This document shows positions 9,293 through 61,181 of a DNA stretch of 64,000 nt, piece after piece. The first letter of the stretch is position 1. Each line of letters starts with the position of its first letter. Below the pieces are notes generated by a model, which was not told the DNA's origin, did no database searches, and worked only from the letters and a program-made list of their open reading frames with translations. Both the position numbers and the translations under genes were made by a program. Location of the stretch: assembly GCA_000998135.1 (NCBI GenBank), contig LCCV01000002.1, positions 29,421 through 93,420 on the forward strand, in the 5' to 3' direction. Source of the stretch: Parcubacteria group bacterium GW2011_GWA2_42_14 (GTDB lineage: Bacteria > Patescibacteriota > Minisyncoccia > Sungbacterales > GWA2-42-14).

Positions 9293-9498
9293 AATTTCAA
9301 TAGATTATCATATTATATAATAAATAGCAAGTTTTTGACTAGAAACTGTTAAATAATTGCCAAAAAGTTATTTCCTGAGCCCGTCGAAGGATAACTTTTT
9401 AGCTTATTAAGGTAAACCCTTCGACTCGCTTCGCTCGCTCAGGGAATAATTCAAAAGGCTCGACTATTACTAATATCTGTTGTATTCTAAAAAAATCT

Positions 9499-10587
9499 AT
9501 GAAAAAAGAAATAAAAATAGAACCCAATATTTGTAACGTCTGCCAAGAACCCAGGTTACAATATGCTTTCTCCGCCCACGATTATATCACGGACGAAAAT
9601 TTTGAGTTATGGCTATGTCCCGATTGCCAAGCCATGGCAACCATGCCGCGATTAAATGACGAGGAACTGCAAAAATATTATCAAGGCGTATATTATGGCA
9701 GAAGAAAATCATTCGTTGACCAATTTATTAATAACGAAAGGGTTTGGACCATTAAAAAACTTTACAAAACTTATCTCAAAAATTACTCTTTCGGTCATTC
9801 TGCCGCCAGAGGCGAGCCTCGCCTTCGGCGGGAGCGAGGCGAAGAATCTCATGATACTCTATCAAGCGATAAACCTGAGATCCTTCACTTCGTTCAGGAC
9901 GACAATATGTCGATTTTAGATATCGGCTGCGGGAACGGTTTATTTCTAAATGGCCTTAAAAAAATAGGATGGAAAATTGCCGGAACAGAACTCGCGCCGG
10001 AAAGCCATGTGCATCCTGATATATCGCCATTCGTCTGCAACAAGCCGGTTAACGAATGTACTTTTACCGGAGAATCATTTGACATCATTACCATGTGGCA
10101 TACATTGGAACATTTCATAAATCCGTCTCTGTATCTTCGTGATGCTAACAGAATTTTAAAAAGAAGCGGAGTTTTAATTATTGAAGTTCCCAACTTCAAA
10201 TCATGGCAATTTTTGATAACAGGCAAACACTGGTTTCCACTGGAAATTCCCCGACACCGCACACATTTTTCTCCCCAAGCCATTAAAATAATTTTGGAAA
10301 AAACCGAATTTCAGATAGTGCGGATATCCTACGGAAACTTTTTTTATGATGTTTTTGGGTTCACGCAAAGCATATTAAACTCCTTGTGCCGGCAAAAAAA
10401 TATCCTTTTTAATATCTTAAACGGAAAACTTTCTGCTTCTATCAACGGAGTACGAAGCGTATTTGATGTTTTTATAACAGTAGTACTCACTCCCCCGCTT
10501 TCAATTATCGGCATAATATTGTTTTTTATAGAAATCGCGACAAAACACGGAGGAACTATGCGGATTTATTCCAAAAAAACATCATAG
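9499..10587 (+). CDS. Class I SAM methyltransferase with N-terminal Zn-ribbon. Carries an in-frame repeat-derived insert.
   Basis: CxxC...CxxC N-terminus and motif I ILDIGCGNGLF. Nucleotides about 9797-9910 (peptide GHSAARGEPRLRRERGEESHDTLSSDKPEILHFVQDD) match repeat families found elsewhere in the window. Confidence 0.7.
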   Translation: MKKEIKIEPNICNVCQEPRLQYAFSAHDYITDENFELWLCPDCQAMATMPRLNDEELQKYYQGVYYGRRKSFVDQFINNERVWTIKKLYKTYLKNYSFGHSAARGEPRLRRERGEESHDTLSSDKPEILHFVQDDNMSILDIGCGNGLFLNGLKKIGWKIAGTELAPESHVHPDISPFVCNKPVNECTFTGESFDIITMWHTLEHFINPSLYLRDANRILKRSGVLIIEVPNFKSWQFLITGKHWFPLEIPRHRTHFSPQAIKIILEKTEFQIVRISYGNFFYDVFGFTQSILNSLCRQKNILFNILNGKLSASINGVRSVFDVFITVVLTPPLSIIGIILFFIEIATKHGGTMRIYSKKTS

Positions 10588-10640
10588 CAACACCGAGTGT
10601 TGCTAAACCCATTAAGCAACACTCAGTGTTGCTTACGGCT
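10588..10640. terminator. Two tandem perfect hairpins between convergent genes (candidate bidirectional terminator).
   Basis: agcaacaccgagtgttgct and agcaacactcagtgttgct each form 7-8 bp stems. There are no strong T-tracts. The same caacaccgagtg palindrome recurs inside CDS 35352..39356. Confidence 0.35.
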
Positions 10641-12221
10641 AATTAAAAATTTTATTTTAGAAAATACAAAAACTACTCCGGTAGCTACAAAAATGAAATA
10701 AAACGGCGCAAAAGGAACACGATAACGGGCGTTTAGGGCCGCTGAAACAGGCAAGGAAACCAAAACCGTTAAAAATATCAAAGCGATGAGAAAATAAGCC
10801 ATCGCTTTTTGGTTATAAACGCCGTTTCTAACTAAAACCCAAGCTCCCAAAACCGATAAAACCCAAAAAACCAACCAAACAACGCGCATGGCATAAGGTA
10901 TAAGATACTGCCCCTTAAGATACGGCAACATATCGCGCCAGGCCGATGGCCCTTTTTGGAGTAAAAGCAAAGATAGCGGTATTGGAGGGCGCTTGGCATC
11001 GGGCAATAAACGGGAATGATTCAAAATATAAAGCAAATCATCCTGTGTAAATAACGTCTGAACCGAATTCAATTGCACCAAAATAGTTTCTTTGGGATGC
11101 TCTTTTAATATTTCAATCGTGCGCTCTTTTAAAAGCGGAATAAATTTAACATCAAATAATTCATGCTCATCGGCGCGGGAAATATACCCTTCGTTTTTTA
11201 ACTGATTCATCAGGTTCTCCAAACTTTGAATATATGACTTCTGGCTGACTGTTGCATTAACCATGGCCGCCATTCTTGTATACATATTATACCAACCGAG
11301 CGTGGAAAGAGTAAATTGTCCGGAGACCTGTTTATTCCGGTACATCCAAGGAACGACCAAGGCCAAAGCTATAAATAAAAAACAAAGTGCCGGTGCCATC
11401 ATTCTGCCGCCAGAGGCGAGCCTCGCTTTCAGCGGGAGCAATGCTAAAAATCCGGCGTCCGTTGTCGCCCTGAACGCAATGAAGGGTCTAAATAATAAAT
11501 TAAAGACCCTTCGGGCTAAACCCTCAGGATGACGTACCGCGCCAGTTCCTTCGCTAACGCCCAAGATGACGCCGTTTCGACGAACCGAAGATATTACCAA
11601 AAAAATAAAAATAAGCGGAAACGCGTAATAAAAAAACGGGCGAGTTAAGGCGGCGAATCCCGACAAAAAACCTATAACGGCGGCTTTTTTAAAACTAGGC
11701 GTTTCAATATATTGATATATTAAAACAACAGCCAGGACCGTAATAAAAACAAAAATACTTTCGGTATTAAGGGTAAGAGTATGAACCGCTATGTGATAGT
11801 CAAAAACTGTTAAAAATCCCGCTATAGCAGATGTTTTTAAATTATCCGTAATCCTTAAGCATAACCAAAATATAAAAACCGGAACAAATGAATTTAAAAC
11901 GGCCTCAAACAAAGAAGCGGGCCAATAAACGCCGAATAAATAATAAAATAATGAAAGAAAAACAGGATAGCCGGGAGTGCGAAGGGTATGCGGTTCAAAA
12001 GGCAACGAATCGCTTAAAGAAAAACCGTTTCCAAGCGATAAATTCCTGGCCAAGGCCATATAATTATTGGCGTCAATCCAGGCCAAACCGCTCCATTCGC
12101 CTAAACGGAAAAATAAAATACCAAATATAAAAAGACGGACGCCAAGCGCCGTTATAAAAATGACCAGTGCGAGACGAAAATATTTTTTGTCAGAAAAAAG
12201 ATATGAAAAAAGTCCGTTCAC
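10623..12221 (-). CDS. Polytopic membrane glycosyltransferase, ArnT/PMT-like (GT39/GT83 family). Carries an in-frame repeat insert.
   Basis: N-terminal multi-TM region with GYPVFLSLFYYLFG-type loop typical of the lipid-carrier-dependent GT-C fold. Residues GTGAVRHPEGLARRV...LASGG are encoded by repeat sequence 11395-11560. Confidence 0.6.
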   Translation of the reverse strand: MNGLFSYLFSDKKYFRLALVIFITALGVRLFIFGILFFRLGEWSGLAWIDANNYMALARNLSLGNGFSLSDSLPFEPHTLRTPGYPVFLSLFYYLFGVYWPASLFEAVLNSFVPVFIFWLCLRITDNLKTSAIAGFLTVFDYHIAVHTLTLNTESIFVFITVLAVVLIYQYIETPSFKKAAVIGFLSGFAALTRPFFYYAFPLIFIFLVISSVRRNGVILGVSEGTGAVRHPEGLARRVFNLLFRPFIAFRATTDAGFLALLPLKARLASGGRMMAPALCFLFIALALVVPWMYRNKQVSGQFTLSTLGWYNMYTRMAAMVNATVSQKSYIQSLENLMNQLKNEGYISRADEHELFDVKFIPLLKERTIEILKEHPKETILVQLNSVQTLFTQDDLLYILNHSRLLPDAKRPPIPLSLLLLQKGPSAWRDMLPYLKGQYLIPYAMRVVWLVFWVLSVLGAWVLVRNGVYNQKAMAYFLIALIFLTVLVSLPVSAALNARYRVPFAPFYFIFVATGVVFVFSKIKFLISRKQH

Positions 12222-12332
12222 TCAAGCCGTTATTGTCCGAGCTTGTCGAGGACTTTACATTTTACATTAATGTTAACTTCTCGACTCGGCTCGAAGAATA
12301 ACCATATTACGCTCGTTTTCGCAGACAAACAG

Positions 12333-16843: not shown

Positions 16844-18331
16844 TTATATCAAGCCGCTGATTTTTTCAAAGATTCTATCAAAATTCCTGACGACATCAAA
16901 AATGGTATTGCCGAAAAGAATGATGAAAACTAAAAATAAAATTTTAAGATTTTTATATTGACCATTTTTAATAAATTTTATAGCTTCCATAATACCTACT
17001 CCGGCAAAAATCGCGAAAAAAGCGTAAGAAGGATAACGATAGCGAGTCTCAACCACAATAAAAACAACCGGCAAAACTACGGCGGCCAGAAACGCTAATA
17101 ACCACATCTTGTTTGTGGTGAAAAACGTGTATGGTAAATCCTTCGACTTCGCTTCGCTGCGCTCAGGAAATAATTTATTGCCTGAACCTGTCGAAGGCAT
17201 ACCTTTCTTTGAACTCCAGATTGCTTCTACAATTCCGTAGAAACCGAAGGTAAAAATAATTACCGACCATAAGGAGGAAAGCGACAAAACGACCGCCTGC
17301 CAAGGACTTCCAAAAAGATACGGCCACCAGCCGGTGGGACGCGCAAAACTAAAATACATGGAAATTCTGAAAAAAGTTATTTTTATGAATTCCAGCGGAT
17401 TAAAAAGTATGAAAATGATAGCTTCTTTTGCCGCCAAACGATCCCCGGTAACCATGTCATAATCATTATATTTAGCGGTAAATTGTATGCGCGAATCGTC
17501 AAGTTCTCCGGACGAGCCGGGGTGATTTCCGGATAAAAGGTCGTCCCCAAACGTTAAACTTGTCGGAATAAAAGCGCCATACACCTTGAAATTGCGGATT
17601 GTCCAAGGAGTCATCACCGCCAGAATGACCGCCGTAAAAATCGCCAAACTGATAAACAATTTCTTTTTGTAAAAAAAATAAATAAAGGGCAAAAAAATCA
17701 AAAGCAAAGGAGTTCTCACAAGAACAGACGCGGCAAAAACAAAACCGAGAAGCGCGGCCAATTTAATGCCCGATTTATCAAGTATGCGAAAAAAAATAAA
17801 AATGGATAACAGCATTAAAAAAATAGCGAGGGTTTCGGCAAGAAGCATGGAACTGCCGATTATTAAATCGGGGTAAAAACCGAATATAACAGCCGCAATT
17901 AAAGCGGCGGCACGCACGTTTAAGGTCGGACCTTCCGCGGAAGGTCCGACCTTTCGCATAATCAAAAAAACCAAAAGAACTGACAAAGCGTGAAATATCG
18001 CCTGCAAGAACCAAACTACCTCATAATGATGCCCAAAAATAAAATAAACCCCCACCAGAAAAAATTCATAGCCCGGGCCTACCCTGCCGATAGAATTATC
18101 TTTTTCAAACGGAAGGTCAAAATTTTGGCGATAACCATGACCATTTAATATATTCACGGCAATACGGTCATAAGCTCCGGCATCAACCGAAGGTTCAATC
18201 TGAAAATAAAAAGAATGGGTCAAAGACAGCAAAAAAGAGGCAAATACAATGCCCCAAAGCAACTTTTTCCAATTCGCATTAACAAAATTCAAAGCACAAA
18301 GCACCAAATCCCAAATAAATTCAAACTTCAA
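16844..18331 (-). CDS. Polytopic membrane glycosyltransferase, ArnT/PMT-like (GT39/GT83). Carries an in-frame repeat insert.
   Basis: N-terminal ...DAGAYDRIAVNILNGHGY... loop and many TM helices. Residues MPSTGSGNKLFPERSEAKSKDLPYT are encoded by palindromic repeat 17130-17215. The annotated N-terminus (MKFEFIWDLVL) lies inside the intergenic IR element 18291-18406, so the real start is probably downstream. Confidence 0.6.
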   Translation of the reverse strand: MKFEFIWDLVLCALNFVNANWKKLLWGIVFASFLLSLTHSFYFQIEPSVDAGAYDRIAVNILNGHGYRQNFDLPFEKDNSIGRVGPGYEFFLVGVYFIFGHHYEVVWFLQAIFHALSVLLVFLIMRKVGPSAEGPTLNVRAAALIAAVIFGFYPDLIIGSSMLLAETLAIFLMLLSIFIFFRILDKSGIKLAALLGFVFAASVLVRTPLLLIFLPFIYFFYKKKLFISLAIFTAVILAVMTPWTIRNFKVYGAFIPTSLTFGDDLLSGNHPGSSGELDDSRIQFTAKYNDYDMVTGDRLAAKEAIIFILFNPLEFIKITFFRISMYFSFARPTGWWPYLFGSPWQAVVLSLSSLWSVIIFTFGFYGIVEAIWSSKKGMPSTGSGNKLFPERSEAKSKDLPYTFFTTNKMWLLAFLAAVVLPVVFIVVETRYRYPSYAFFAIFAGVGIMEAIKFIKNGQYKNLKILFLVFIILFGNTIFDVVRNFDRIFEKISGLI

Positions 18332-18406
18332 AATTCAGATATTAAAACTTATGTATTTTAAGCATTTGGATTTTGATATTATTTGGGATTTGGGATTTTA
18401 AAATTG
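18291..18406. repeat. Intergenic inverted-repeat element (family ccaaatcccaaat...ttcaaaattcaa / ttgRattttgRtattatttgggatttg), copy 1 of 4.
   Basis: Other copies are at 22511-22666, 50333-50457 and 59438-59556. Each lies between the stop of one minus-strand gene and the start of the next. Confidence 0.6.
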
Positions 18407-18413
18407 TGATTTA

Positions 18414-19109
18414 TCAACTAAATAGGTTGAATCGGATTATATGCCAAATTGCCGCTACTCCGTCTTTCCAATTTATTTTTTTTCCTTCTTCATAAGTTCT
18501 TCCGGAATAAGAAATGCCTACTTCGTAAACCCGCCATTTCTTTTTGGCGACTCGCGCGGTTAATTCAACCTCGATTCCGAATCTGTCAGACTGCAATTTG
18601 GGCAAAATTGAATCAATAACTTCTTTCCGGAACGCCTTATATCCGGTTTCAATGTCAGAAAGGTTTAAGTTGGTAAAAATATTGGAAAGAAAAGTTATAA
18701 AAATATTAGCGATATAATGATGAAAGAGAAGTACACGCCTCGGCTGATTGGTAACAAAGCGCGAACCATATACCGCATCCGCCTTGCCGTCTAAAATCGG
18801 TTTAAGCAGGATCGGGTAATCTTTAGGGTCGTATTCCAAATCGGCATCCTGAATTAAAACAATATCTCCGCCTGCCTTTTTAAAACCTGTTTTTAAAGCC
18901 GCTCCCTTTCCCTTGTTCCTCCAATGTTTTTCAACAATAATTCCGATTTCACTTTCAAGCACTTCTTTGGTTGAATCGGTTGAAGCGTCGTCCACAACAA
19001 TAATTTCCTTATCCAAACCCAAAGAATCGGCGGTTTTTACACGTTTAATAATTTCGGAAATAGTTGATGATTCGTTATAGACGGGGATAATTATAGAAAG
19101 TTTATTCAT
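18414..19109 (-). CDS. GT2 family glycosyltransferase.
   Basis: [14 protein letters not shown]...[12 protein letters not shown]...QDADLEYDP. Confidence 0.8.
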
Positions 19110-19178: not shown

Positions 19179-19943
19179 TTATTTTTTAAATATAAACACC
19201 GTAATCACCCCTAATCTATTCAGAAACGGAATTTTTTCCATTACAGCATTAAAAATATTAGAAAAAACAGGAATATACTTGGGGAACGGCAAATGGTATG
19301 ACATTTGCCTTAAAGATAATCCTGAATCTCGGCAAATCTCAATTAGTTCCTTAATAGAAATCCTTTCGTGCGGGCCTTCGGGCATTTTTAATTTCAATTT
19401 TTCGGCTAAATCCAGAATCGGCTCCCATAAAGGATTGGCCATGGATACAATAACTTTTGTACTGTCGGAAGCAAGTTTTGCGATATTTCGCACACTCATT
19501 CTAACATCATCCAGATGCTCAATTACATCTGCCAAAATTATATAATCAAATTTTTCTTCGGTTCGAAAATCAGCCGCCGTTGATTGAAAAAACGTTAAAT
19601 TTTTAAAATTGGCATATTTTTCTTGCGCCCTTTTTATCATTTCTCCGCTTACATCAACGCCAATCCCCAATGACGGCCTAAGTTCGGCTAAAATTTCTCC
19701 GGTACCACAGCCAATTTCCAAAACCCTTGAACCAGCCGGAATAGAACTTTTATAAATTTTTTTGACGGCATCATAATAATACCAATTCTTCCTTTTCCAA
19801 TAGTCGTAAGAAGGGGCTATTTCGTCAAAATGTTTTTGTACTTCGTCCATGCCAATTTTCTCAGCGAGGCAAGCAAGATTGCTTGCCACAGCCGAGATGT
19901 TAGAAAATTGAGCAGTTTTGTTGCTAAAATTGACAATTTTCAA
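19179..19943 (-). CDS. Class I SAM methyltransferase (paralog of the N-terminal domain of 20040..21446).
   Basis: Motif I VLEIGCGTGEILAEL. The N-terminal YDYWKRKNWYYYD... segment is shared with the neighbouring fused gene. Confidence 0.7.
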   Translation of the reverse strand: MKIVNFSNKTAQFSNISAVASNLACLAEKIGMDEVQKHFDEIAPSYDYWKRKNWYYYDAVKKIYKSSIPAGSRVLEIGCGTGEILAELRPSLGIGVDVSGEMIKRAQEKYANFKNLTFFQSTAADFRTEEKFDYIILADVIEHLDDVRMSVRNIAKLASDSTKVIVSMANPLWEPILDLAEKLKLKMPEGPHERISIKELIEICRDSGLSLRQMSYHLPFPKYIPVFSNIFNAVMEKIPFLNRLGVITVFIFKK

Positions 19944-20029
19944 TTGTCATCCTGAACGAAGTGAAGGATCTATATATCTTTTGAGATTCTTCGCCTAGCT
20001 CAGAATGACAGCACGGCTGTCAATTTTAG
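19924..20029. mobile_element. About 105-bp MITE-like palindromic element with terminal inverted repeats (ctaaaattgacaa ... ttgtcaattttag).
   Basis: TIRs plus an internal inverted pair gtcatcctgaacgaagtgaaggatc / gattcttcgcctagctcagaatgac. The core recurs inverted inside CDS at 9877-9905 and partially at 52030-52075. Confidence 0.55.
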
Positions 20030-22481: not shown

Positions 22482-22662
22482 TTAATAAATCCTTAATCCA
22501 ATTCCAAAAAACCCCAAATTCAAAATCCCAAATTCCAAATATCAAAATTCAAATAATAAATACAAAATATATTACTGTTTGAATTTTGAAATTTTCCGCC
22601 GAAGGCGGATCCGCCTCTGGCGGAGAATTTATTTGGGATTTGGTGCTTTGGATTTTGAATTT

Positions 22663-23652
22663 TCAAACCAATCCCTTCAATCCGTTTTTCTTCATATCAC
22701 TATCCAGCATTTTTTTCACAAGCTCTTTAAATCTTACCTTCGGCTCCCAACCAAGTTCTTTTTTGGCTTTAGAATAATCGCCCTGCAATATATCGGCCTC
22801 GGTGGGTCGATAATGCTTTTCGTCAATCTCCACATATTTTTTCCAATCAAGGCCGGCAAGCCCGAATGCTTCTTCAACAAATTCTTTTACCGAGTGGGTT
22901 TCCCCCGTAGCCACTACAAAATCATCCGGACGAGAATGCTGCATCATGAGCCACATGGCTTCCACATAATCGGGGGCATAGCCCCAATCGCGCTTGGCAT
23001 CCATATTCCCCAAAATTAATTTATCTTTTTTCCCGGCAACAATATCCGCCACTCCTCTGGTGATTTTTCTGGTCACAAATGCTTCGCCCCTCCTCTCTGA
23101 TTCATGATTAAAAAGTATGCCGTTCACAATAAACATATTATAGGCCTCGCGGTAATTTTTAGAAATCCAGTAACCAAAAACCTTAGAAACGGCATAAGGA
23201 GAACGGGGATAAAACGGCGTTGTTTCTTTTTGGGGCACTTCCTGGGCCTTGCCGAACATTTCTGAAGAAGAAGCATTATAAAATTTAATAGAGTCCATCC
23301 CGGCATCTCTGATTGCCTCAAGTAATCGCAAAACCCCCAAACCGGTAACATTGGCCGTAAATTCCGGCGTATCAAAACTTAACCGCACATGGCTTTGCGC
23401 CCCCAAATGATACAATTCATCCGGCTTGACTCTCCGTATCAAATAATTTACGGAGCTTGCATCAGTCAAGTCCCCGTAATGCAGGAAAAAACGCTCATAT
23501 TTAGGATGCTTTTGCATATGGTCAATTCTTTCGGTATTGGTGGAACTGGAACGGCGTATAAGCCCATGAACTTCATAATCCTTGGAAAGCAAAAACTCGG
23601 CCAAATATGAGCCGTCTTGTCCGGTTATGCCTGTAATTAAGGCCTTCTTCAT
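22663..23652 (-). CDS. gmd: GDP-mannose 4,6-dehydratase.
   Basis: [43 protein letters not shown] is the canonical Gmd N-terminus. Confidence 0.9.
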
Positions 23653-35351: not shown

Positions 35352-38300
35352 CTACGGCAATAAATCCGGCGGAATGGTTTTTATGACATTGGAATCATCA
35401 TAAAAGTCAATGCCGCCGTTGTTTATGAGGTGATGCGAACTATCCACAGCCATGCCGACGCCGTTGTCGCGAAAAATCAAATTGCTTATAGTAGTGGTTG
35501 CGCTGCCGGAAATAACCAAAGCGTAATATTGCTTGCCGGGCAATAAATTGTCCCGAAAAATCGTATCCGTAACGGTGCTTGAGGCATTACTCGCGAGCCA
35601 AACGCCCTTAAACTTATTTTTTTCAATCACGGAATTTTTAATGGTAAGCGGCTCATTGCCGCCGGCCTTGATTCCGGCAAGATTATACCGCTCTTCTTCT
35701 CCTCCGGCGTATCTTATAACGGCGCCGTCAAAAACCGCTTCTCCAGAACCCCAAAAATCAATGCCCCGCCAATGCCCCAAAATCGGCTGGCTGGAAGTGG
35801 CGTCATTATTGGTATCCCCGCCGTATTCATCATCATAAAATGATGTAAAAACAACCGGCTCCTCGAGGGTGCCATTAGCCGAAAAAGCTCCGGCAATGGT
35901 CAAACCGGTATTAGGCATAAATTTAAACACCGCGCCCTTTTCCGCGGAAATATTTCCCGCAAACGTGTAATTTCCCCAATCAATAATATAAGGCAAGTCC
36001 TTGGCAAAAACATGATCATTGCCCGCGTTATTCCTGATAATAATTCCTTTAACGCCGGGGCTGTCGGAAATAACAGTGTTTCCTCCGAATAACGGCGGAG
36101 AACTTTCCGCAATGATAACATTTCCATTTTTATCAAAAGTGTTGTTGCGAACTTCTCCGCCATGTATGTCGGAGGAAAAAATTCCTCCGCCATTTTCCAA
36201 AAATGTATTATTTAAAACTTTTGGAGCAGAACCGGCTATTATCAATGCCTCAAGAGCGTTTTTATAAAATACGCTATTTTCTATGTTCGCATTGCAGTTT
36301 ATACAAGACAAACCCCTAAGCAAAGAGTGCTCAAGGCGTGAATTTTTAAACGAAAGAGCCGCGCTTGTGATATAAATCATGGCCCTTCTTTTAAACGGCA
36401 AATTATTATCCATATTTCCACCGTATCTGAAAAACGTGTTTAAAAATTCCGAACCGGAGCTTTCCAAATTAAAAGTGAATTGCCTCCAATTGCCTGCTTG
36501 AGGGCATATCGCGGTTGAAGAAGCGTTTAACGGGTCGCAAACGCCATCTTTATTGGTATCTCCGCCGTATTCATCATCATAAATGCCGGTAAAAACAATT
36601 GGCTCTTCGGGCGCGCCTCGCGAAAAGATTTTTCCGTAAACATTAATAATTGCCCAATAATCATTAGGCGGCATAATCTTTATAACCACGCCCGGCTCAA
36701 TATTAAGAACAGCGCCGTCTCTTATAGTTAAACCCGCTCTTCGGATAAGGTAAGGAGAATTTTCTTTGGTCAGAATTCTATCACCAGTCAAATTTCCGTC
36801 AACGGCAATCAAATAATTAACGCTGTTTCTGGCTTTGGGAGTACCATAAACCGGCCCGTCCTCGGCGTTTTTGTTAATATTGACTATTTCCTCTTCAAAA
36901 TAAGTCCCCCAGTTTGCCTGCGTTTCACCCGGAGCGTCCGGGTCAATTCTTTCCATAGAAAATCTTGCTAACAAAATACCTGCGCACCAGCCGGTAGGGC
37001 GCGAGCGATCCCATGGACAAAGTTCCGGGGTTCTATCAATGGTTCGGCTTGGCTCACCACTGGCGGTCGTAGAACCTTTTTCCAGTTTTAAAATCATTCC
37101 GTTGTCATCAAGCCCCGCGCCGAACGAAGCGATAAAATCGGCCTTAATAATTGATACGGCGTTATCATCATCACGCTCAATCAAATAATAACTTTTGGGC
37201 GCGATTTTACCGGAAAGATTGATTATTATTTTTGGCTCGGGCTCGCCGGGCTTAAAAAATTTCAACTGCCAACCGGTTAAATCAATTTCGGCTTCAGAAC
37301 GGCTCTTTAACTCAATCCATTCATCTTCACTGGTGGTTGCCGAATTGCCGGTTCCCGCCCAGGCGATTTCGTTTATAATGACCGGCATTTGATTTATTTC
37401 TAAGATTTTTACAATTTCAGCCGATTCATTTCCGGTTTTATCTTTGGCTTTAGCGCGAAATTCATAAAAAGTGTTTGGGGAAGCAGTAAAAATAAATGAT
37501 GTCGCAAACGGCGCGGTTGACGACGCCGTTGAGGTCGAACCTCCCATGGGAGGTTCGACCTCTATAAATTTCAGAAAATCGTCGCAATCTTGCCACGGCT
37601 GGCTTGTTTTTTGACGATAAGCGCAATTTAGGAAAAAGGACGCAATATCTTCGCTATTGGACTCCAAAAAAATCGTAAGAGTGGTTGTAGCAATAACGCA
37701 ATCAGTTTGAGAAAAACTGTCAGAACATTCCTGAATGTTCAAAGAAATGTCCGGCGGAGTAGTATCGGTCGTTGTAGTAGCAACACCGAGTGCTGCTGAC
37801 GCTTCAGCATCACTCGGTGTTGAAGCTTGAACCGGCGCAACATATTCCCCGCCCGCGCCAGCTATAAAATCACCCAAAGCATAAGGAGGAGGCGGAGGCG
37901 GAGTTGAAGTAGCAACACCGAGTGTTGGCATTGGTAGAAAAACACTCGGTGTTGAAGTGGCTGCAGGAGCCAAATCTAAAGTTTCAGAATCTATGGAGGT
38001 TGAACCTCCATAGATTTGAGGAACGGGCTCAATATCGGAGGTTTCCGAAATGGTTCGACTCGACTCACCATAAAAAGAGCCGAAATTCGCGATTTCGTCA
38101 TCAGCAACACCGAGTGCTGCCGACGCATCGGCATCACTCGGTGTTGACAACTCCGTTGTCGACTCCGTACTCGTAATAATCGCCGCTGTGTAAGAAGTGT
38201 TACTGTCTGAGCTTGCTTGCCCGTCCAAGTTTTCCGCAGAAAAGTTGGTCAGGGTCGAGAACAAACTACTTGTCCAATTCCACGCTTTCTGCCACCACGA

Positions 38301-39976: not shown

Positions 39977-40217
39977 AATATCAAATTATTATAATTGACT
40001 CAATTACTCTAAGTTACTCTGATTAAAACCAAAAGTCAAATGTCTTGTGTCTTGTGTAACTGTTGAATAATTGCCAAAAAGTTACCTCCTGAACTTTTCG
40101 CAAGACAACTTTTTGGCTTTAAATAAGGTAACCCCTCGACTCTGCTCGGGGGGTAAGAGGATTATTAATAACCTCTGTGGATAACTTTCGGTTTATTTTC
40201 GGTATTAAGGTGTTAAT

Positions 40218-43180: not shown

Positions 43181-44041
43181 TTATTTTTTTAGCGCGTCAA
43201 TCTCTGCTGCGACTGCCTTATTATGGGGGTCTAAAGCAAGGACTTTTTGGTAATACTCAAGGGCTTTGGGGAAATTGCCCTGTTCTTTATAAAAACGGGC
43301 GAGGTAGCTTAAAAGGGTTTGGTTGTCGGGGTTGGCGGCGAGACCGGATTCAATTATTTTTATAATTTTGTTGCTTCTCGACTCGCCTGCGGGTTCGCTC
43401 GAAGAATATAAATCGGCAAGGGCTGTATATGGATAAATATCGCCCGGAGCATTCTCTATGGCCTTCTTATAGCTTAATTCGGCCTTAGGATAGTCCTTAA
43501 GATATAAAGCGTATAATCCACCCAGATTAGCAAAAGAGGTGGAATTTTGGGGCCTGATGAGTGAGGCATACTCCCAGGCGTCCCGCGCTCCCAAATAATC
43601 GCCGAAAAATTTCTTAATTACCCCGGCTCTTAACCAATTATCAAGATTATCCGGGCTTTCGGAAACGAATTTGGCAATGTCCAAAAGTTCATTTCTTAGC
43701 TTGGTTTTGACATCTTCAGGATAAGCTAAAACGACGCTTTTATCTTCGTTTACGGTTCCGATTGGGGCGCCATTGTATTGAGGAAGCGTAGGTAATTCTG
43801 TTGGTTTTACAACTTCACCGGACAAGTCACGACCTTCTTTGCGGACAAGGTCGGGACTTGATTGACCGACAAGACCCGGTCTTTTTTCCTCAAGGTCGGG
43901 CCTTAAAACGTCACCGAAAAAATAATAGCCGGAGGCGATAAAGGCCAAAAATAATAAAATAACGAGGTCGCGGAGGAGTAGATTTTTTGTTGAATTGGAC
44001 ATGTTTTTATTAATAGGTATGACTTCGACGAAATCAGGCAA
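43181..44041 (-). CDS. TPR-repeat protein with N-terminal TM anchor.
   Basis: N-terminal hydrophobic helix. C-terminal TPR-like repeats (WEYASLIRPQNSTSFANLGGLYALYLKDYPKAELSYKKAIE...ALEYYQKVLALDPHNKAV). Confidence 0.6.
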   Translation of the reverse strand: MPDFVEVIPINKNMSNSTKNLLLRDLVILLFLAFIASGYYFFGDVLRPDLEEKRPGLVGQSSPDLVRKEGRDLSGEVVKPTELPTLPQYNGAPIGTVNEDKSVVLAYPEDVKTKLRNELLDIAKFVSESPDNLDNWLRAGVIKKFFGDYLGARDAWEYASLIRPQNSTSFANLGGLYALYLKDYPKAELSYKKAIENAPGDIYPYTALADLYSSSEPAGESRSNKIIKIIESGLAANPDNQTLLSYLARFYKEQGNFPKALEYYQKVLALDPHNKAVAAEIDALKK

Positions 44042-44384
44042 TAAAATGATACTCCCTAAGCGAGCCCTGCGAGTCGAAGGGTTTCCTTGAATGTATGCCT
44101 TCGACCCGCTTCGCCAAAGCTTCAGCGAGGCGAGTCAGCGAGGCGAGCAAGCTCGAAGAATAAGCAGAGATTACTTCGTCGGTACGCCTCCTCGCAATGA
44201 CGCCGGAATAGTACCTTATAAAAATTATCATTAATAAAGAGATAAATCAATGGTCGTCATCATATATTGCCTGAACTTGTTGAAGGCATACCTTAATGGT
44301 AAACCCTTCGACTCGGCTCAGGGAATAATATTTATAAACAGACCGTCCGAAAACTATAGAACTTCAAAAAACTCGAACAATAAT

Positions 44385-47400: not shown

Positions 47401-48078
47401 CGCATCCTGTCCAATGCCCTGACGTTCAACTGTTACGGAGCTGACAGTTACATCACCGTCAGAACCGGCAGTAAACACTACACTGGTAAATGGAACGCGA
47501 GTTACACTCAACGGAACCAAGGCCGCGGCAGGCTGTGCACCTGCTGATACGCTAAGACCTGTTCCTGATGGAACTGTTGGCGTTGTTGGTGTTTCTGTGG
47601 TTGGCGTTGTTGGTGTTTCTGTGGTTGGCGTTGTTGGAGTTGTTGGAGTTGTTGGAGTTACCGGAGCCACTGCCATTGAATTATACTTTGCCTGGGAAAT
47701 TGGACCAAAGTATCCGACGGCCGGAGAAACCCCGTTTGCCGCCTGCCAAGCAGCTACTGCCGCTTGAGTGACAGAACCGAAATATCCGGTGGCACCCCCC
47801 GCATAAGTGAAGTGACCTGTTGAAGTTAAATAATTCTGCAAGCATGTTACAGCATCCCCTCTTGAACCGACTGTAAGAGCGCTAGTGAAACCGCAAGCGG
47901 CTCCGCCGCCACCTCCTCCGCCGGAAAGGGCGACGAGTTGTGCTTGAAGGGCCGTGATTTGAGCTTGCAACTGGGCAATGAGATCTGCCGTTGACTGTTG
48001 CGCCAATGACGCGACAGGGGTCAGAACCAAAGCTCCGGTAAGCCAAACCGCGGCTGAGGTTGAAATAAATTTATTCAT
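44461..48078 (-). CDS. Giant (1205 aa) secreted cell-surface protein with an N-terminal peptidoglycan-binding-like domain, a PTT-repeat linker and long Thr/Gly/Val-rich beta-repeats.
   Basis: Signal peptide MNKFISTSAAVWLTGALVLTPVASLAQ. A Gly run. PG_binding_1-like GSRGDAVTCLQNYLTSTGHF...GYFGSVTQAAVAAWQAANGV. (PTTPTTETPTT)n linker. The remainder is Ig-like beta-rich. Confidence 0.65.
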   Translation of the reverse strand: MNKFISTSAAVWLTGALVLTPVASLAQQSTADLIAQLQAQITALQAQLVALSGGGGGGGAACGFTSALTVGSRGDAVTCLQNYLTSTGHFTYAGGATGYFGSVTQAAVAAWQAANGVSPAVGYFGPISQAKYNSMAVAPVTPTTPTTPTTPTTETPTTPTTETPTTPTVPSGTGLSVSAGAQPAAALVPLSVTRVPFTSVVFTAGSDGDVTVSSVTVERQGIGQDAALSGIVILGEDGLQLGLSKTLNSLHQAVLTEPFTVKAGTSKTMTIAANRGATTGYSGQVIRLTVVAVSAGSATVTGLPVAGTGQTMNETSGLVGGFDLIRGPLDPSTTGITKEVGTTGYVFSSIKGTAGAGEDIWIKSVKFNQSGSAATADLANVKVYVAGTAYDTTVSSDGKYYTSVFGTGVKVLKGNTAEIYVKGDIVSGSARTVDFDIYRHDDLYVVGAQYGYGLLPADTGTAGFDSASPAYNANAINIGAGSIVVSKSTAVASQNVAVTLADQPLGGFDVEVKGEAVTIPETSFRFTLSDSDGGAEIDVDDIDNIVLVGPSGAVVAGPVDGQAGNTVNSLVAHGYVTFTDSITFPIGKGLYTLKGKLAATSGFENNDTIIASTTPGTDWRNGTGAVTGTAVTPTPAGQVTGNTMTVKSAVVTVTLSSDPPAQNVVMGIQGFTFAKPVFDATASGEDIRFTTLSFTFADDTGADTTDLTGCQVWDGATALNTGTNVVDIATEGAKTFTLDSHLIIPKGTTKTLAIKCNIPANLTASNQAEWQIAASTLSATGVTSGQAATVTHLASTDDQNEMTLVAGGSLSVSLSASSPTYAIVAGNTTDVPLALLNLHATNEAITLQKLALKLSSTTNNAPADIVKYTLWDGSTKVGEGLFTGTDYSTSTLTADFVIPKDGDKTLTVKGDLSAIGTSQVGTEGALVVVDFDGGSRGTEGVGQSSGSTIQTKTADTAAVSSTASNGVRMFKSYPTFAKVSLSTNKLAAGTVSLLRFKVTADSHGDIGLAKFTFVMSTTSATVQNLRVYGYSDILFSIAAYANSGLLNNTAIPVQNKKEWFSAGTEDNVLYGGGNQFSVYFDPVTQSGSVLGVPTDVIQVPAGATRYFDVVATVSSVSTNSSVSTQLEGDGAYPGLIPGTPSATNPIMGQASTTPSTAGIADQTHNDLIWSPNATTTAALSSKDWTNGFGVVGLPATNMAAEVVSY

Positions 48079-48079: not shown

Positions 48080-49453
48080 ATTTTTTATCTAAGTTAATTA
48101 TAACTTTTCCAAAAATTTTTTCCGTGGTTCGATAAACTCACCACGAGAAGAAAAAGATGGAAAAGAAATTTACAATCACGATTCATAACCTCTTCGACTT
48201 TACCCGATATTCCAAAGGAAAATTTAGGGTAAAAAAGATTTAAATCGTGAATAACAAAATCAAATTAATAATAATCAATGTTTTGGAGTCAAGTCACCCT
48301 CATGCGTCTTGAATCATGAATCTTGAAACTTGAAACATGAATTACGAAACATGAGATGGTCCGCTCCATCTTGTCATATTTAAATATTTTAATATTTAAA
48401 TATTCAAAGCGGGAGGGTCGACCGGACTTTAAAACTCCTAAATCAAAAACAAATTAAGAATTTACTAATTTTTTCTTTTGCATCCGAACCTAAACCAAAA
48501 CCATCATCAAACAGAAAAGTAATTTTTAATTATCAAGGTTCTTGCCGTTCAGAATCATGAAACATGAAACATGAAATTTCAATCGTTTACAACCAAATTT
48601 CGAAATTAAAGCAACCAAGTTATACTATCAATTCCGAAATTTAATTGCAAATTATATTGTGAATAATGGTGGTTCGATAAACTTACCATAAATTCGGTTT
48701 GCTCACCGCAAGTGTTAAATAACTACAAACAAGCCAAAAATTGGCTCATTTAATTTAAAAAAATTAAGTCATAACTATCTTAAATTATTATATATCTCCG
48801 CAAATGGTTCAACTCTGCTTACCACAAGTATATTATAAACCCACTAAAAATCACTTGCAAATAGGCATTGTGGATAAGTGCTACAGCTTCAAAACCAAAA
48901 TATAGTACTTATATTGCTTAATTTTCAAGCATTTTTGCCATTTCGGCAATAACAGCAATTTAACGGCAAAAAACCAACTTATCTGATATCTGATATTATT
49001 ATTATAAATCATATAAAAAAGCAAATAAACTCTGTTGTGGATAAGTTAATTCTATACAAAAATGGCATAAAAAACCCCATTTGCAACTATCCTTTTTACC
49101 TTTCACGGCATTCAAAGCTCATAGGAGCAGATTTCACGCGAATATTAACACTGATTAACGCGGAAATAAATAACCGGGAATGGCCAAAATCTATCTTAAA
49201 GCCTTAAAAAATAGCTTATTTTATTAAAATTAACCTAATTATTCTGATAAATTCACCTAATTCCTAATTACCTAATTCACCTAATAAAATTTCTAATGCA
49301 CTAATACTTAATTCTTAATTTAAAATTTTGGAATTTGGTTATTTTATTAGAAATTAGGTGAATTAGACAATTAGAAATTCTTTAAGCAAACTCAAAAATC
49401 AGCAAAATTTATCCTTCGACAAGCTCAGGCAATAACCATTTTTGATATGGGTT
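48080..49453. other. 1.37-kb gene-free AT-rich region with short tandem repeats, two perfect DnaA-box nonamers and two covarying hairpins.
   Basis: No ORF of 60 aa or more on either strand. tgtggataa occurs at 48869-48877 and 49036-49044. ggttcgataaact loops sit at about 48125-48150 and 48668-48695 with different stems. catgaaa heptad repeats are present. Confidence 0.5.
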
Positions 49454-50323
49454 CTAAACAATGCTCTCCAAATGTTCTCTAAAACCTTTTTTCACTTCCG
49501 GATGACGAAGACCGAAATCCACGACAGCCTTAAGGAGGCCGAGTTTATCTCCGCAATCATATCTGATTCCTTTGAATTCATAACCGTATAAATTTTCACC
49601 TTTGGCAAGCATTCTTTCAAAAGCATCAGTTAAAAATAATTCCTTACCGGGTTCATATTTTACTTTGGCAAGTTCGTCAAATACCGCGGGCGTCAAAATA
49701 TATTTTCCAACGATTGACAGATTAGACGGAGCCTCCTCTATTGTAGGTTTCTCAATTATTTTCTCTACTTCGTATGTCCTTGATGAAATTTTTTTGCCGC
49801 CAATAACACCGTATTTGTAAACCATTTCTTTGGGAACCCGTTCTAAAGCAAATACCGGCTTATTAAATTTTTCAAAAACGACAGCAAGCTGTTTAAGACA
49901 TGGTATCTTTGAATATACGACATCATCTCCATAAAGGACAGCGACAGGTTCATCGCCAATTAAATGACGGGCCTGCAACAAAGCGTCACCAACCCCAAGC
50001 GGTTCTTTCTGACGGACAAAAGCAAAACGAGCAAGTGATGAAATTTTTCTTATTTCTTTAGCCAAACCATGTTTACCTTTCTTTGTCAGAAAAAATTCCA
50101 GCTCTCCGGCATGGTCAAAATGATCCTCAATAGCGCGCTTGCCCCTGCCGGTAACAAATATGATTTCCTTTATTCCGGAATCAACAGCTTCCTCAACCAA
50201 ATACTGAATAACCGGCTTATCCACAATAGGAAGCATTTCTTTTGGCTGGGCTTTGGTGGCAGGAAGAAAGCGGGTGCCGAAACCAGCTACAGGGATGATG
50301 ACTTTTTTGATTTTAGAAACCAT
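49454..50323 (-). CDS. galU: UTP--glucose-1-phosphate uridylyltransferase.
   Basis: KKVIIPVAGFGTRFLPATKAQPKEMLPIVDKPVIQYLVEEA is the canonical GalU N-terminus. Confidence 0.85.
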   Translation of the reverse strand: MVSKIKKVIIPVAGFGTRFLPATKAQPKEMLPIVDKPVIQYLVEEAVDSGIKEIIFVTGRGKRAIEDHFDHAGELEFFLTKKGKHGLAKEIRKISSLARFAFVRQKEPLGVGDALLQARHLIGDEPVAVLYGDDVVYSKIPCLKQLAVVFEKFNKPVFALERVPKEMVYKYGVIGGKKISSRTYEVEKIIEKPTIEEAPSNLSIVGKYILTPAVFDELAKVKYEPGKELFLTDAFERMLAKGENLYGYEFKGIRYDCGDKLGLLKAVVDFGLRHPEVKKGFREHLESIV

Positions 50324-50520
50324 TTAAATCTAATAAATCCAAATCTCAAAATCCCAAATAAATTCAAACTTCAAAATTCAAGTATAAAAACTTAATTCTT
50401 TAACAATTTGGATTTTGGTATTATTTGGGATTTGATGCTTTGGATTTTGAATTTTTAAACCCGGTTTGTCGCTTATAAACGACACCTGAAATGTCGCTTA
50501 TAATAATGTCGTTTATAAAT

Positions 50521-51867: not shown

Positions 51868-52076
51868 ACTTTCTTATCCTTTTAGGTTTTCAAAAAACCG
51901 TATTTTATCGGTTGCACATCTTAGAATCTATGTCAAGACCTCAAAAACCCCCATCGGTTTACAATGGGAATTTTTTTCTTTCTTTTACTTATTTTTAATT
52001 AAAAGAGATACTTCATGTAGTTTACCTTGAGATTCTTCACAAAGTTAAGAATGACAATCAAAAGGATCAAAATGAC

Positions 52077-59385: not shown

Positions 59386-59553
59386 TATAACACAGGTAGA
59401 AAACTAAAAAAATAAGCCTAGTTATAAAGGCTAAAACAAATTCCAAATCCCAAGCACCAAATCCCAAATTCAAACTTCAAAATTCAAATCTAAAAAATTT
59501 TTAACATTTAAATTTTGATACTATTTGGGATTTAAGATTTTGAAATTGGGATT

Positions 59554-60665: not shown

Positions 60666-60842
60666 CGCTTGTTATTAAAAACACCGCTTATGAGCGGGTC
60701 TTAGATAAAATATTTTATCTTTCCCCGTTCGGTCTTCCTTCGCACGAAGCTTCGGAGGACGAGGATGGATTTAGCACCACATTAACACCTTTTGTTAATA
60801 GGCTGCTGGCGGTTCATTGAGCCAAAACTCTCCCCGCGCTCT
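60666..60842 (-). ncRNA. SAM-I (S-box) riboswitch with terminator in the metK leader.
   Basis: Minus-strand sequence: tttatcaagag (P1 5') ... ggggagagttttggctcaatgaacc ... gtggtgctaaatcc (conserved GUGCUAAAUCC) ... cgaagcttcgtgcgaagg (P4 hairpin) ... aaagataaa (P1 3'). It is followed by hairpin cccgct-cata-agcgg plus a T-tract. Confidence 0.6.
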
Positions 60843-61181
60843 TGATAAATTATTCAATTTTTATAAAACCATCATACTATGAAACGCGAAATGCGCAAGA
60901 AAAGTTATCCACCCCGTTAGAAGTTCGAAAATACACATTGATTTAAAAAATGACACAAAGCGAAAGCGGCTTACCCCGTTAGAAATCCAGCAACATGTCA
61001 ATTACGGCATAACGACGCGGAGCGAAACGGCTCCGCCTTACGTCTTTCTGAATAAAATAAGCTTTTTAAAGATTTCTAACGGGGCTTACGCCTTATGCCT
61101 GTGTCTGAATATGGCCACCCTTAAACCTCTAACGGAGTAAACAAAAACAAAAGGCCCCGAAATGAGGCCCAAGACAAATTA

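What the first reader, a model, noticed from the sequence alone, without database searches (positions are those of the whole stretch)
11395..11560. ArnT/PMT-like membrane glycosyltransferase carries an in-frame palindromic insert of the same family
Nucleotides 11395-11560 (tctgccgccagaggcgagcctcgctttcagcgggagc ... cgaaccgaagatatt) encode GTGAVRHPEGLARRVFNLLFRPFIAFRATTDAGFLALLPLKARLASGG inside the 532-aa ORF. The first 40 nt are the module A repeat seen in the neighbouring MTase gene (9797-9835). The reading frame is intact.
Basis: seen in the sequence. Interest (0 to 1): 0.5.

Follow-up and report, generated by a model that had tools for sequence, protein, structure and literature searches.

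The report
Nested hairpin repeats inside a glycosyltransferase gene
A membrane sugar-transferase gene of an uncultured Parcubacteria-like bacterium carries about 170 bases of nested, GC-rich hairpin repeats that stay in frame. This is a new example of a known kind of event (like the Rickettsia palindromic elements), but one 30-base module in it looks like an undescribed element found across several phyla.

Summary
A 54-nt stretch (11399-11452) repeats 9795-9848 at 89% identity, with 0 matches expected by chance. It lies in frame in a 532-aa GT-C/PMT_2 glycosyltransferase ORF (10623-12221, minus strand).

Homologues show a real, layered insertion. Three relatives have a short, R/K-rich loop at this site. 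Three closer relatives carry one inverted hairpin dimer there, and a fourth carries a decayed one. The window has that dimer, a second dimer nested in its loop, and a 30-nt palindrome ("A", 11407-11436) nested in one arm.

The dimer arms (YGTC-AT..AT-C) fit the architecture of CGTC/TGTC-tagged REPs, the class that includes Rickettsia RPE-4/-6 and Neisseria dRS3/NTS. The same arm type flanks Ssn-family GIY-YIG ssDNA-nuclease genes in four cyanobacterial genera.

The host gene is under purifying selection (dN/dS 0.10-0.15). AlphaFold models the fold well except for the insert, and the loop is probably cytoplasmic.

The main finding is therefore a new member of a known kind. Module A matches nothing in Rfam or the papers searched. 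It occurs in roughly 37 contigs from several phyla, often in frame in housekeeping genes, and its mobiliser is unknown. That is the novel part.

The parts
10623..12221 (-). Host gene: 532-aa GT-C fold (PMT_2/ArnT-like) membrane glycosyltransferase
   Evidence: ORF. Pfam PMT_2 and PMT. AlphaFold pLDDT 84.3, pTM 0.85. Foldseek top hits are all GT-C enzymes. dN/dS 0.10-0.15 against L002, L004 and L005.
11398..11570 (.). Whole composite insert (about 173 nt, GC 53% vs 39% for the rest of the gene). It encodes roughly residues 218-275 between two transmembrane helices.
   Evidence: Homologue alignments. GC content. Nested-hairpin fold, -64.9 kcal/mol, z -2.5. pLDDT 42-62 across the insert.
11544..11570 (-). 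Outer dimer C1, arm with tag on the minus strand (cGTCATCTTGGGCGTTAGCGAAGGAACT). It encodes VILGVSEGT.
   Evidence: nhmmer arm profile, E 1e-4. Orthologous to the arm GTCATCCTGAGCGCTAGCGAAGGATCT in L002, L004 and L005.
11398..11453 (+). Outer dimer C1, second arm (ATCATTCTG / AGCAATGCTAAAAATCC), interrupted by module A
   Evidence: With A removed it reads ATCATTCTGAGCAATGCTAAAAATCC. Compare L002 GTCATTCTGAGCAGAGCGAAGAATCT.
11407..11436 (+). Module A: 30-nt GC-rich palindrome CCGCCAGAGGCGAGCCTCGCTTTCAGCGGG. It encodes LPLKARLASG in the gene.
   Evidence: It differs from the methyltransferase copy by a compensatory C..G to T..A pair in the 3' hairpin.
11464..11489 (+). Inner dimer C2, plus-strand arm (tGTCGCCCTGAACGCAATGAAGGGTCT)
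   Evidence: nhmmer E 7e-4. The dimer 11464-11533 folds with z -4.7.
11490..11503 (.). AT-rich loop of inner dimer C2
11504..11533 (-). Inner dimer C2, minus-strand arm (cGTCATCCTGAGGGTTTAGCCCGAAGGGTCT). It encodes RHPEGLARRV.
   Evidence: nhmmer E 6e-3 and fold.
9499..10587 (+). Neighbouring convergent class I SAM methyltransferase gene (362 aa) with the sister insert
   Evidence: Pfam Methyltransf_23, E 1.7e-24. The L002 orthologue is 35 aa shorter and keeps only one solo arm at the site. L003 has none.
9794..9903 (+). Insert in the methyltransferase gene: arm GTCATTCTG[A]AGCGAGGCGAAGAATCTC (9794-9850), loop, and arm 9878-9903. Module A lies at 9803-9832.
   Evidence: (fold z -3.4).
19946..20009 (.). 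Intergenic copy of the same C-type dimer, lying between two genes on the minus strand
   Evidence: The arm 19943-19971 is 97% complementary to 9878-9906 (I12).
52030..52055 (-). Solo C-type arm, intergenic, next to the clpB stop codon

Best explanation
The insert is a pile-up of small selfish or recombinogenic DNA hairpin repeats that landed in, and were tolerated by, a permissive loop of a GT-C glycosyltransferase in a Parcubacteria-like (Sungbacteria-related) genome.

Step 1 (shown by comparison). An inverted dimer of about 27-nt arms (C1) entered the short, positively charged loop between two transmembrane helices. This happened in the ancestor of the window gene and of P0002-P0005. More distant homologues lack it.

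Step 2 (shown). In the window lineage a second dimer of the same type (C2) took the place of C1's loop. A 30-nt GC palindrome (A) was inserted without target duplication into one C1 arm, between CTG and AGC. The same A sits at the same position in a C arm in the adjacent methyltransferase gene.

Step 3 (inferred). Only copies that kept the frame and had no stop codon survived, because the host gene is under purifying selection. The extra ~55 residues are translated as a poorly structured, fast-evolving, probably cytoplasmic loop.

The arms have the architecture of CGTC/TGTC-tagged REPs, also called Ssn-related motifs: a YGTC tag, a stem beginning with AT, a GAGCGNAGCGA core containing the GCGNAGC mini-hairpin, and a C after the palindrome.

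Their spread most likely goes through single-stranded DNA hairpins handled by an Ssn-type GIY-YIG nuclease encoded elsewhere in the genome, or through recombination between copies. This is inferred. Mobility of this class has never been demonstrated.

The two A copies 1.6 kb apart arose either by site-specific insertion into hairpin loops or by gene conversion between the two neighbouring C arms. This is unresolved.
For: Repeat statistics. Homologues with no dimer, one dimer or a decayed dimer at the identical site, seen at protein and DNA level. The same pattern in the methyltransferase gene: full insert in the window, a solo arm in L002, nothing in L003.

C-type arms also occur intergenically in the window. 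They occur in at least 120 IMG/VR contigs and in plasmids of cultured cyanobacteria, Bacteroidota and Acidobacteriota. Positions 6 and 22 of the arm covary (ATYCT..AGRAT).

All 8 Ssn-homologue genes inspected carry tagged or tag-like hairpin arms in their flanks. In the four cyanobacterial genera these include C-type arms or close variants of them.

The described class is documented in PMC3733652 (tags, AT-start stems, dimers, intragenic clusters encoding 43-82 aa, RPE-4/-6 as members) and PMC11893778 (Ssn nucleases and their flanking motifs).

Host integrity: dN/dS 0.10-0.15 outside the insert, against pN 0.34 inside it. Only the used frame is open. AlphaFold pLDDT is above 90 on both sides and 42-62 in the insert. 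The fold is GT-C. Loops of insert-less homologues read RIIEWRRR and KTKTRKK, which suggests a cytoplasmic position. The insert is identical in two other records.
Against: No Ssn/GIY-YIG gene lies in the 64-kb window, and the rest of the genome could not be searched. The published SRM degenerate pattern does not match the window's arms. The arm's stem and loop geometry (5 bp + G.A/A.G + 2 bp, 3-nt loop) differs from the four CGTC families, which have 8-9 bp stems and 4-5 nt loops. The C1 arms are now poorly complementary, so the evidence that C1 is an element rests on orthology with L002, L004 and L005. Module A has no tag of either REP superfamily and no associated gene. The C-arm/A junction is found nowhere else in the metagenome collection apart from this genome, so its mode of duplication is undetermined. 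Expression of the insert as protein is not shown.
Confidence: 0.75

Rival explanations
1. The extra loop is a native, lineage-specific linker that diverged in place. Its resemblance to repeats elsewhere is coincidental or due to codon and composition effects.
For: The loop between these helices varies in length among homologues. The C1 arms are degenerate.
Against: The 54-nt match with the methyltransferase gene has 0 matches expected by chance. The L002, L004 and L005 arms are clean inverted repeats with the same consensus as intergenic copies. GC is 53% against 39% for the rest of the gene. The same 25-mer is found in hundreds of unrelated contigs.
Confidence: 0.03
2. The hairpins are retained because the mRNA or DNA structure itself is useful. 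It might act as a translational pause that helps membrane insertion of the next helix, as an mRNA stabiliser, or as a recombination or uptake signal as proposed for Neisseria NTS. On this view they are not merely tolerated.
For: The insert folds better than shuffles (z -2.5, and -4.7 for the inner dimer). The two A copies differ by a compensatory pair. The element has persisted at the same site across homologues of 75-84% identity. REPs are reported to affect mRNA fate (PMC3733652).
Against: The C1 arms have decayed to poor complementarity. L006 has lost recognisable arms yet keeps the gene. Insert-less homologues exist. The insert's amino-acid sequence evolves about 3-4 times faster than the host. 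Hairpin conservation is also what a recent insertion would show.
Confidence: 0.12
3. The glycosyltransferase (and the methyltransferase) are pseudogenes inactivated by the insertions.
For: About 55 extra residues, including hydrophobic stretches (FNLLFRPFIAF, GFLALLPL), lie between two transmembrane helices and could disturb topology.
Against: The 532-codon ORF is intact and only the used frame is open across the insert. dN/dS is 0.10-0.15. All family-invariant residues are retained (D50, R81-P86, R194, W292, N296). The AlphaFold model is confident around the insert. No 19-residue window within the insert reaches the hydropathy threshold of 1.5 used for a transmembrane helix.
Confidence: 0.07
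4. The insert is removed after transcription or translation (an intron, an intein or translational bypass), so the mature protein lacks it.
For: It is a discrete, structured, GC-rich block in an otherwise AT-rich gene.
Against: No Rfam family, including group I and II introns, matches it even at E up to 10. It has no intein-like length or motifs. It is in frame without stops, so removal is not needed. Rickettsial RPE-bearing proteins are reported to be expressed in vivo (PMC3733652).
Confidence: 0.02
5. It is an assembly or chimera artefact.
For: Repeats can mislead assemblers.
Against: The sequence is identical in a JGI metagenome contig and in a separate record. L001 differs from the window only in its last 19 bases, and L170/L172 have 7 SNPs, none in the inserts. 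Related inserts sit at the same site in four other contigs from other samples.
Confidence: 0.01

Closest known systems
CGTC/TGTC-tagged REPs (Di Nocera et al. 2013, PMC3733652), which include Rickettsia RPE-4/RPE-6 and Neisseria dRS3
   Same: A 5' YGTC tag, a stem starting with AT, and a short tail beginning with C. They are mostly arranged as inverted dimers. They are found both intergenically and inside ORFs, where clusters encode 43-82 aa. They occur across several phyla.
   Different: The arm geometry differs: 5 bp + tandem G.A + 2 bp with a 3-nt loop and a conserved GAGCGNAGCGA core, against 8-9 bp stems with 4-5 nt loops. The host is a Patescibacteria-like genome, which that survey did not cover. 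Nesting here is three levels deep.
Ssn-related motifs (SRM/NTS) and Ssn GIY-YIG ssDNA nucleases (Chenal et al. 2025, PMC11893778)
   Same: The tag-hairpin-C architecture, including the GTC and the post-palindrome C that are critical for cleavage and binding. C-type arms flank Ssn homologues in Planktothrix, Lyngbya, Coleofasciculus and Anabaena.
   Different: The published degenerate SRM pattern does not match C-type arms. No Ssn gene was seen in the window. The paper does not discuss intragenic, in-frame copies.
Rickettsia palindromic elements (RPE-1 and others; from my own knowledge: Ogata et al. 2000, 2002)
   Same: Palindromic repeats inserted in frame in otherwise conserved genes. They are translated, tolerated at permissive surface positions, and have no known transposase.
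   Different: RPE-1 is a single element of about 100-150 nt specific to Rickettsia. Here there are several smaller units nested within one another, and the unit types are shared across phyla.
REPIN/RAYT systems (Bertels and Rainey 2011; Nunvar 2010)
   Same: Inverted doublets of tagged hairpins. A single small nuclease gene is flanked by the repeats. The biology runs through ssDNA hairpins.
   Different: The tag is GTAG and the enzyme is an HUH Y1 transposase. REPINs are mostly extragenic and lineage-specific.
Yeast mitochondrial GC clusters (from my own knowledge)
   Same: Short GC-rich palindromes in an AT-rich genome. They nest or form tandems, are sometimes in frame in a coding gene (VAR1), and have no element-encoded enzyme.
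   Different: They occur in organelles, have a different sequence, and show an AG/TAG target duplication. No duplication is seen for module A.

Membership tests
CGTC/TGTC-tagged REP superfamily (PMC3733652) | Unpaired 5' tag CGTC (or the variants TGTC, CCTC) | tested here: met
   cGTCATCT (11570 downward), cGTCATCC (11533 downward), tGTCGCC (11463-), tGTCATCC (19945-) and gGTCATTC (9793-). One arm has a degenerate ATC (11398).
CGTC/TGTC-tagged REP superfamily (PMC3733652) | The stem begins with complementary A-T residues and is followed by a short tail | tested here: met
   ATYCT...AGRAT followed by C. Y and R covary in 151 instances.
CGTC/TGTC-tagged REP superfamily (PMC3733652) | Stem of 8-9 bp and loop of 4-5 nt (families CGTC-1 to CGTC-4) | tested here: not met
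   The C arm folds as 5 bp + a 2x2 internal loop + 2 bp with a 3-nt loop. It would have to be a further family.
CGTC/TGTC-tagged REP superfamily (PMC3733652) | Many copies per genome, mostly as inverted dimers | tested here: inconclusive
   About 9 arms in 64 kb, in 4 dimers plus 1 solo arm. The whole genome is not available.
Ssn-related motif (SRM), PMC11893778 | Matches HGTCWYN(0-2)YYVSBRHN(0-5)WNVSBRGN(0-2)RNCYNB | tested here: not met
   The regex gives 0 hits in the window and fails on the C-type consensus and on the Planktothrix and Spirosoma arms. It does hit the Nm NTS, Azospirillum and Rhizobium arms.
Ssn-related motif (SRM), PMC11893778 | Flanks genes for single-domain GIY-YIG (cd10448) Ssn nucleases | tested here: met
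   C-type arms, or close variants sharing the GAGCGAAGCGA core, flank Ssn homologues in 4 of 4 cyanobacterial genera. Related tagged arms flank them in Spirosoma, Rhizobium, Azospirillum and Novosphingobium. This tests the arm type, not this genome.
Ssn-related motif (SRM), PMC11893778 | A cognate Ssn gene is present in the same genome | not testable with these tools
   None in the window. Other contigs of the genome could not be retrieved.
Rickettsia palindromic elements | Palindromic repeat inserted in frame in conserved ORFs, absent from orthologues | tested here: met
Rickettsia palindromic elements | Sequence similarity to the RPE-1..RPE-8 consensus sequences | not tested
   Only the literature statement that RPE-4/-6 are CGTC REPs (PMC3733652).
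MITE | Terminal inverted repeats with a target-site duplication, derived from an IS element | tested here: not met
   There is no duplication at the A junctions (TCATTCTG^AGCG in both genes; CCGCCAG^AGGCGG in L014, L021 and L023). Possible 7-nt duplications appear in only 2 of about 37 loci (L027, L038).
Known structured RNAs, introns and riboswitches (Rfam 15) | Covariance-model match | tested here: not met
   No hit on either insert at gathering score or at E up to 10.
GT-C glycosyltransferases (PMT_2/ArnT-like), for the host protein | Pfam PMT_2 above the gathering score, a GT-C fold, and an acidic residue in the first external loop | tested here: met
   PMT_2 35.8 bits against a cut-off of 26.1. 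Foldseek hits STT3/AglB/PglB/ArnT/Pmt. D50 is nearly invariant.

The most novel reading that the evidence does not exclude
Module A (gCCGCCAGAGGCGAG-CCUCGC-N-loop-N'-GCGGGa, about 30 nt) is an undescribed family of mini hairpin elements shared almost verbatim by Patescibacteria, Omnitrophota, Elusimicrobia, Planctomycetota, Bacteroidota and MAGs labelled Gammaproteobacteria. It inserts without target duplication into the single-stranded loops of other hairpin repeats, nesting up to five deep. It also inserts in frame into housekeeping genes: DNA ligase, ArgRS, Rho, Lnt and a thiolase-like gene. That would imply a still unknown enzyme, or a horizontally moving agent that writes the same 10 codons into proteins across phyla. 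A second, smaller point: C-type arms extend the Ssn/SRM system to a motif variant that the published pattern misses, to candidate-phyla genomes, and to coding regions.
Probability: 0.45. Interest if true: 0.65.

Novelty: new member of a known kind. Interest (0 to 1): 0.45.

Why it matters
For annotation, these blocks inflate and disguise proteins in candidate-phyla genomes. They also generate recurrent spurious peptides such as VILSEAKDL, RFFASLRMT, AARGEPRLRR and PPEASLAKGG. Recognising them allows cleaner gene models and alignments.

For biology, the locus is a clear three-layer record of how hairpin repeats colonise a permissive loop of a membrane enzyme under purifying selection. It ties a Patescibacteria-like genome to the recently discovered Ssn nuclease and hairpin-motif system.

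If module A is a real cross-phylum element, it offers a tractable case for two open questions. How do enzyme-less mini palindromes move? How does identical DNA come to sit inside essential genes of unrelated bacteria?

Tried and rejected
1. Rfam at gathering score and at E up to 10 found nothing on either insert.

2. A literature search by sequence strings returned only unrelated primers. Searches for palindromic elements in candidate phyla found nothing relevant.

3. I tested whether the C-arm/A junction is a propagating unit. The metagenome scan found only this genome's own two sites plus one chance hit.

4. The A core is absent from IMG/VR contigs. In plasmids and phages of cultured organisms it gives only chance-level hits.

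5. I looked for a GIY-YIG gene next to C arms in 120 viral loci and in the window. None was found with phmmer or with a 5-sequence HMM. The association is only visible from the gene side.

6. I looked for a gene associated with module A. Two weak GIY-YIG hits lie within about 1.2 kb (L009, L017), but both sit next to tRNA genes and are flanked by other hairpins, so I judged this unconvincing.

7. A Kyte-Doolittle scan alone miscounts helices. Topology was instead inferred from AlphaFold helices plus the positive-inside rule.

8. A Pfam enrichment run on about 170 ORFs near A sites was prepared but not carried out.
Full report
**Observation.** None of 100 shuffles gave a match. Extended, the shared stretch is 54 nt (9795-9848 vs 11399-11452, 89% identity, D17). 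The quoted string really spans 11403-11595, so the stated coordinates are slightly off. The peptide is read on the minus strand inside the 532-aa ORF 10623-12221. That ORF hits Pfam PMT_2 and PMT above their cut-offs. Its AlphaFold model (pLDDT 84.3, pTM 0.85) matches only GT-C enzymes in the PDB: STT3/AglB/PglB, ArnT, Pmt, Emb and AftA. The neighbouring convergent gene 9499-10587 is a class I SAM methyltransferase. The nearest named ClpB relatives of the window (66-70% identity) are Candidatus Sungbacteria, Parcubacteria and Patescibacteria.

**It is an insertion, and it is layered.** A homologue search found 16 relatives. In the alignment, P0006, P0007 and P0008 have a short basic loop (RIIEWRRR; KTKTRKK) between the helix ending FIFLV and the helix ALCFLFIALALVVPWMYRN. 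P0002-P0005 have 23-31 extra residues there, and the window has about 54.

The DNA of five homologue contigs shows the following:
- L002, L004 and L005 carry a single clean inverted dimer at this site: GTCATCCTGAGCGCTAGCGAAGGATCT, a loop, then AGATTCTTCGCTCTGCTCAGAATGAC.
- L006 carries a decayed version.
- L003 has nothing.

In gene orientation the window reads as follows. First comes the C1 arm (11570-11544). Then comes the inner dimer C2 (11533-11504, loop, 11489-11464) in place of C1's loop. Last comes the second C1 arm (11453-11398), which is interrupted by a 30-nt palindrome A (11407-11436). With A removed, that arm reads ATCATTCTGAGCAATGCTAAAAATCC.

The methyltransferase gene tells the same story. 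The window has a full dimer with A at the same arm position (GTCATTCTG^AGCGAGG). L002 keeps only a solo arm (RFFADAQND) at the site, and L003 has none. The 173-nt block folds as nested hairpins (-64.9 kcal/mol, z -2.5). The inner dimer alone has z -4.7.

**The host gene is alive.** Outside residues 205-280, dN/dS against L002, L004 and L005 is 0.10-0.15. Inside that zone pN is 0.34, against 0.08-0.13 outside. Only the used frame of six lacks stops across the insert. Family-invariant residues are kept. pLDDT is above 90 on both sides and 42-62 in the insert.

I inferred topology from the AlphaFold helices, the position of the conserved acidic loop (D50), E154 and R194, and the positive-inside rule. 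The result places the site in a cytoplasmic loop between TM6 (195-217) and TM7 (264-300), with the 301-436 domain periplasmic. This is an inference, not a measurement. The insert is identical in two other public records.

**What the C arms are.** The same arm type occurs intergenically in the window, as a dimer at 19946-20009 and a solo arm at 52030-52055. A degenerate 25-mer, GTCATYCTGARCGNAGYGAAGRATC, hit at least 120 IMG/VR contigs of 32-70% GC. Most hits are solo arms, and positions 6 and 22 covary, so each arm is itself a small hairpin. The arm also occurs in plasmids of cultured Planktothrix, Calothrix, Oscillatoria, Hymenobacter and Granulicella.

In the Planktothrix plasmid a 94-aa GIY-YIG gene is flanked on both sides by these dimers. 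All seven further homologues of that gene that I inspected also have tagged or tag-like hairpins in their flanks:
- Spirosoma, Rhizobium, Azospirillum (between sufB and sufC) and Novosphingobium.
- Lyngbya, Coleofasciculus and Anabaena, which carry C-type arms or variants sharing the GAGCGAAGCGA core with compensating stem changes.

This matches two published descriptions. The first is the CGTC/TGTC-tagged REP superfamily, with AT-start stems and dimers. It includes Rickettsia RPE-4/-6 and Neisseria dRS3. Its intragenic clusters encode 43-82 aa, and it has "no dedicated transposase" (PMC3733652). The second is the Ssn family of single-domain GIY-YIG site-specific ssDNA nucleases, whose genes are flanked by hairpin "SRM" motifs. 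In those motifs the GTC upstream of the palindrome and the C after it are critical (PMC11893778).

Membership is not perfect. The published SRM pattern does not match C-type arms, and the stem and loop geometry differs from the four CGTC families. I therefore call them a variant of that class. No Ssn gene is present in the window.

**Module A.** The 20-nt core CCGCCAGAGGCGAGCCTCGC occurs in 41 genome contigs. About 37 of these are low-GC MAGs of Patescibacteria, Omnitrophota, Elusimicrobia, Planctomycetota, Saprospiraceae, Clostridia and "Gammaproteobacteria". The four from high-GC genomes lack the 3' half and look like chance matches.

In about 36 of 42 instances the core is followed by a hairpin closed by GCGGG (or a one-base variant), and in most of these the inner pairs covary (C/G, T/A, CC/GG, TC/GA, TCAC/GTGA, TCCT/AGGA). 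The two window copies differ by exactly such a compensatory pair.

A is found nested inside A-like elements, always after CCGCCAG (L014, L021, L023, L040; five-fold in L045). It shows no target duplication there or in the window.

A lies in frame inside genes confirmed by Pfam:
- Lnt (L014)
- ATP-dependent DNA ligase (L030)
- a thiolase-like gene (L041)
- Rho (L044, two copies)
- ArgRS (L043)
- another PMT_2 glycosyltransferase (L036)

It has no GTAG or CGTC tag and no Rfam match. No paper in the library contains its sequence. It has no hit in viral contigs and only chance-level hits in plasmids and phages of cultured organisms. The C-arm/A junction exists only in this genome. The two copies therefore arose either by site-specific insertion into the arm's internal loop or by gene conversion between arms 1.6 kb apart. 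I cannot decide between these.

**Verdict.** The main phenomenon, translated REP/RPE-like hairpin repeats in a permissive loop, is a new member of a known kind. Its value lies in being a clear nested example in a candidate-phyla genome and in the link to the Ssn system. The part that may be new is module A.

Noticed in passing
L002 (P0002), near the C-terminus of the glycosyltransferase orthologue: A second lineage-specific insert of about 33 aa (HPVRSPAKSIFEMKPEGEAGLRLPSSLNYAQPPTSNGAS). Its PEGEAGLRLP segment resembles a translated A-like palindrome. It is absent from the window and from the other homologues.
   Followed up: no
P0008 (764 aa, NCBI/JGI, contig 101,791 nt): In a distant homologue the GT-C glycosyltransferase is fused to a Methyltransf_23-type methyltransferase. 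The two genes are neighbours in the window and in L002, L003 and L004, which suggests a functional pair.
   Followed up: partly
window 9344-9448, 12272-12301, 17152-17205, 40058-40156, 44015-44092, 44259-44328, 49404-49441: Further families of intergenic hairpin repeats with related cores (TTCCTGAGCCCGTCGAAGGA; CCCTTCGACTCGCTCGCTCAGGGAAT). These are probably sister sub-families of the C-type arms (D13, D14, D18, I5, I6, I21, I25).
   Followed up: no
window 18284-18419, 22509-22669, 50323-50461, 59431-59561: An AT-rich palindromic repeat family built from AAATCCCAAAT / ATTTGGGATTT units, at four loci (D1, D2, D4, I1, I2, I4, I8).
   Followed up: no
window 37779-38147: Three copies of a 45-nt palindrome, AGCAACACCGAGTGCTGC...GCATCACTCGGTGTTGA, within 370 nt. 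A weaker copy overlaps the glycosyltransferase stop region at 10615-10659 (D3, I3).
   Followed up: no
window 60712-60851 (-): A SAM-I riboswitch (RF00162, 63.6 bits). It is the only Rfam gathering-score hit in the window.
   Followed up: no
window 47576-47665: A tandem 24-nt and 9-nt repeat (GTTGGCGTTGTTGGTGTTTCTGTG ...). It may be a repetitive coding segment (D7).
   Followed up: no
L178 (Azospirillum lipoferum 4B plasmid AZO_p3, 255,506-255,799): An Ssn-type GIY-YIG gene with its two hairpin dimers sits between sufB and sufC, inside an essential operon.
   Followed up: partly
L009 4783-5120 and L017 3304-3740: Small, divergent GIY-YIG genes lie directly next to tRNA genes in an Omnitrophota MAG and a Curtissbacteria MAG. 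In L009 the tRNA is followed by a 400-nt mosaic of GC-rich hairpins that includes module A.
   Followed up: partly
L045 about 905-1010; L025 322-390: Five consecutive CCGCCAG half-sites precede one A element (serial nesting). Separately, there is a tandem array of [14-nt spacer + A].
   Followed up: no
L183 (Coleofasciculus) downstream of the Ssn gene; L168 (Planktothrix) on both sides: Tandem arrays of the bare tag plus a few bases (…ccacTCAGAATGACagtattggatt… x7; tgtcattctgagt… x2-3). These look like repeated partial copies made at the tag.
   Followed up: no
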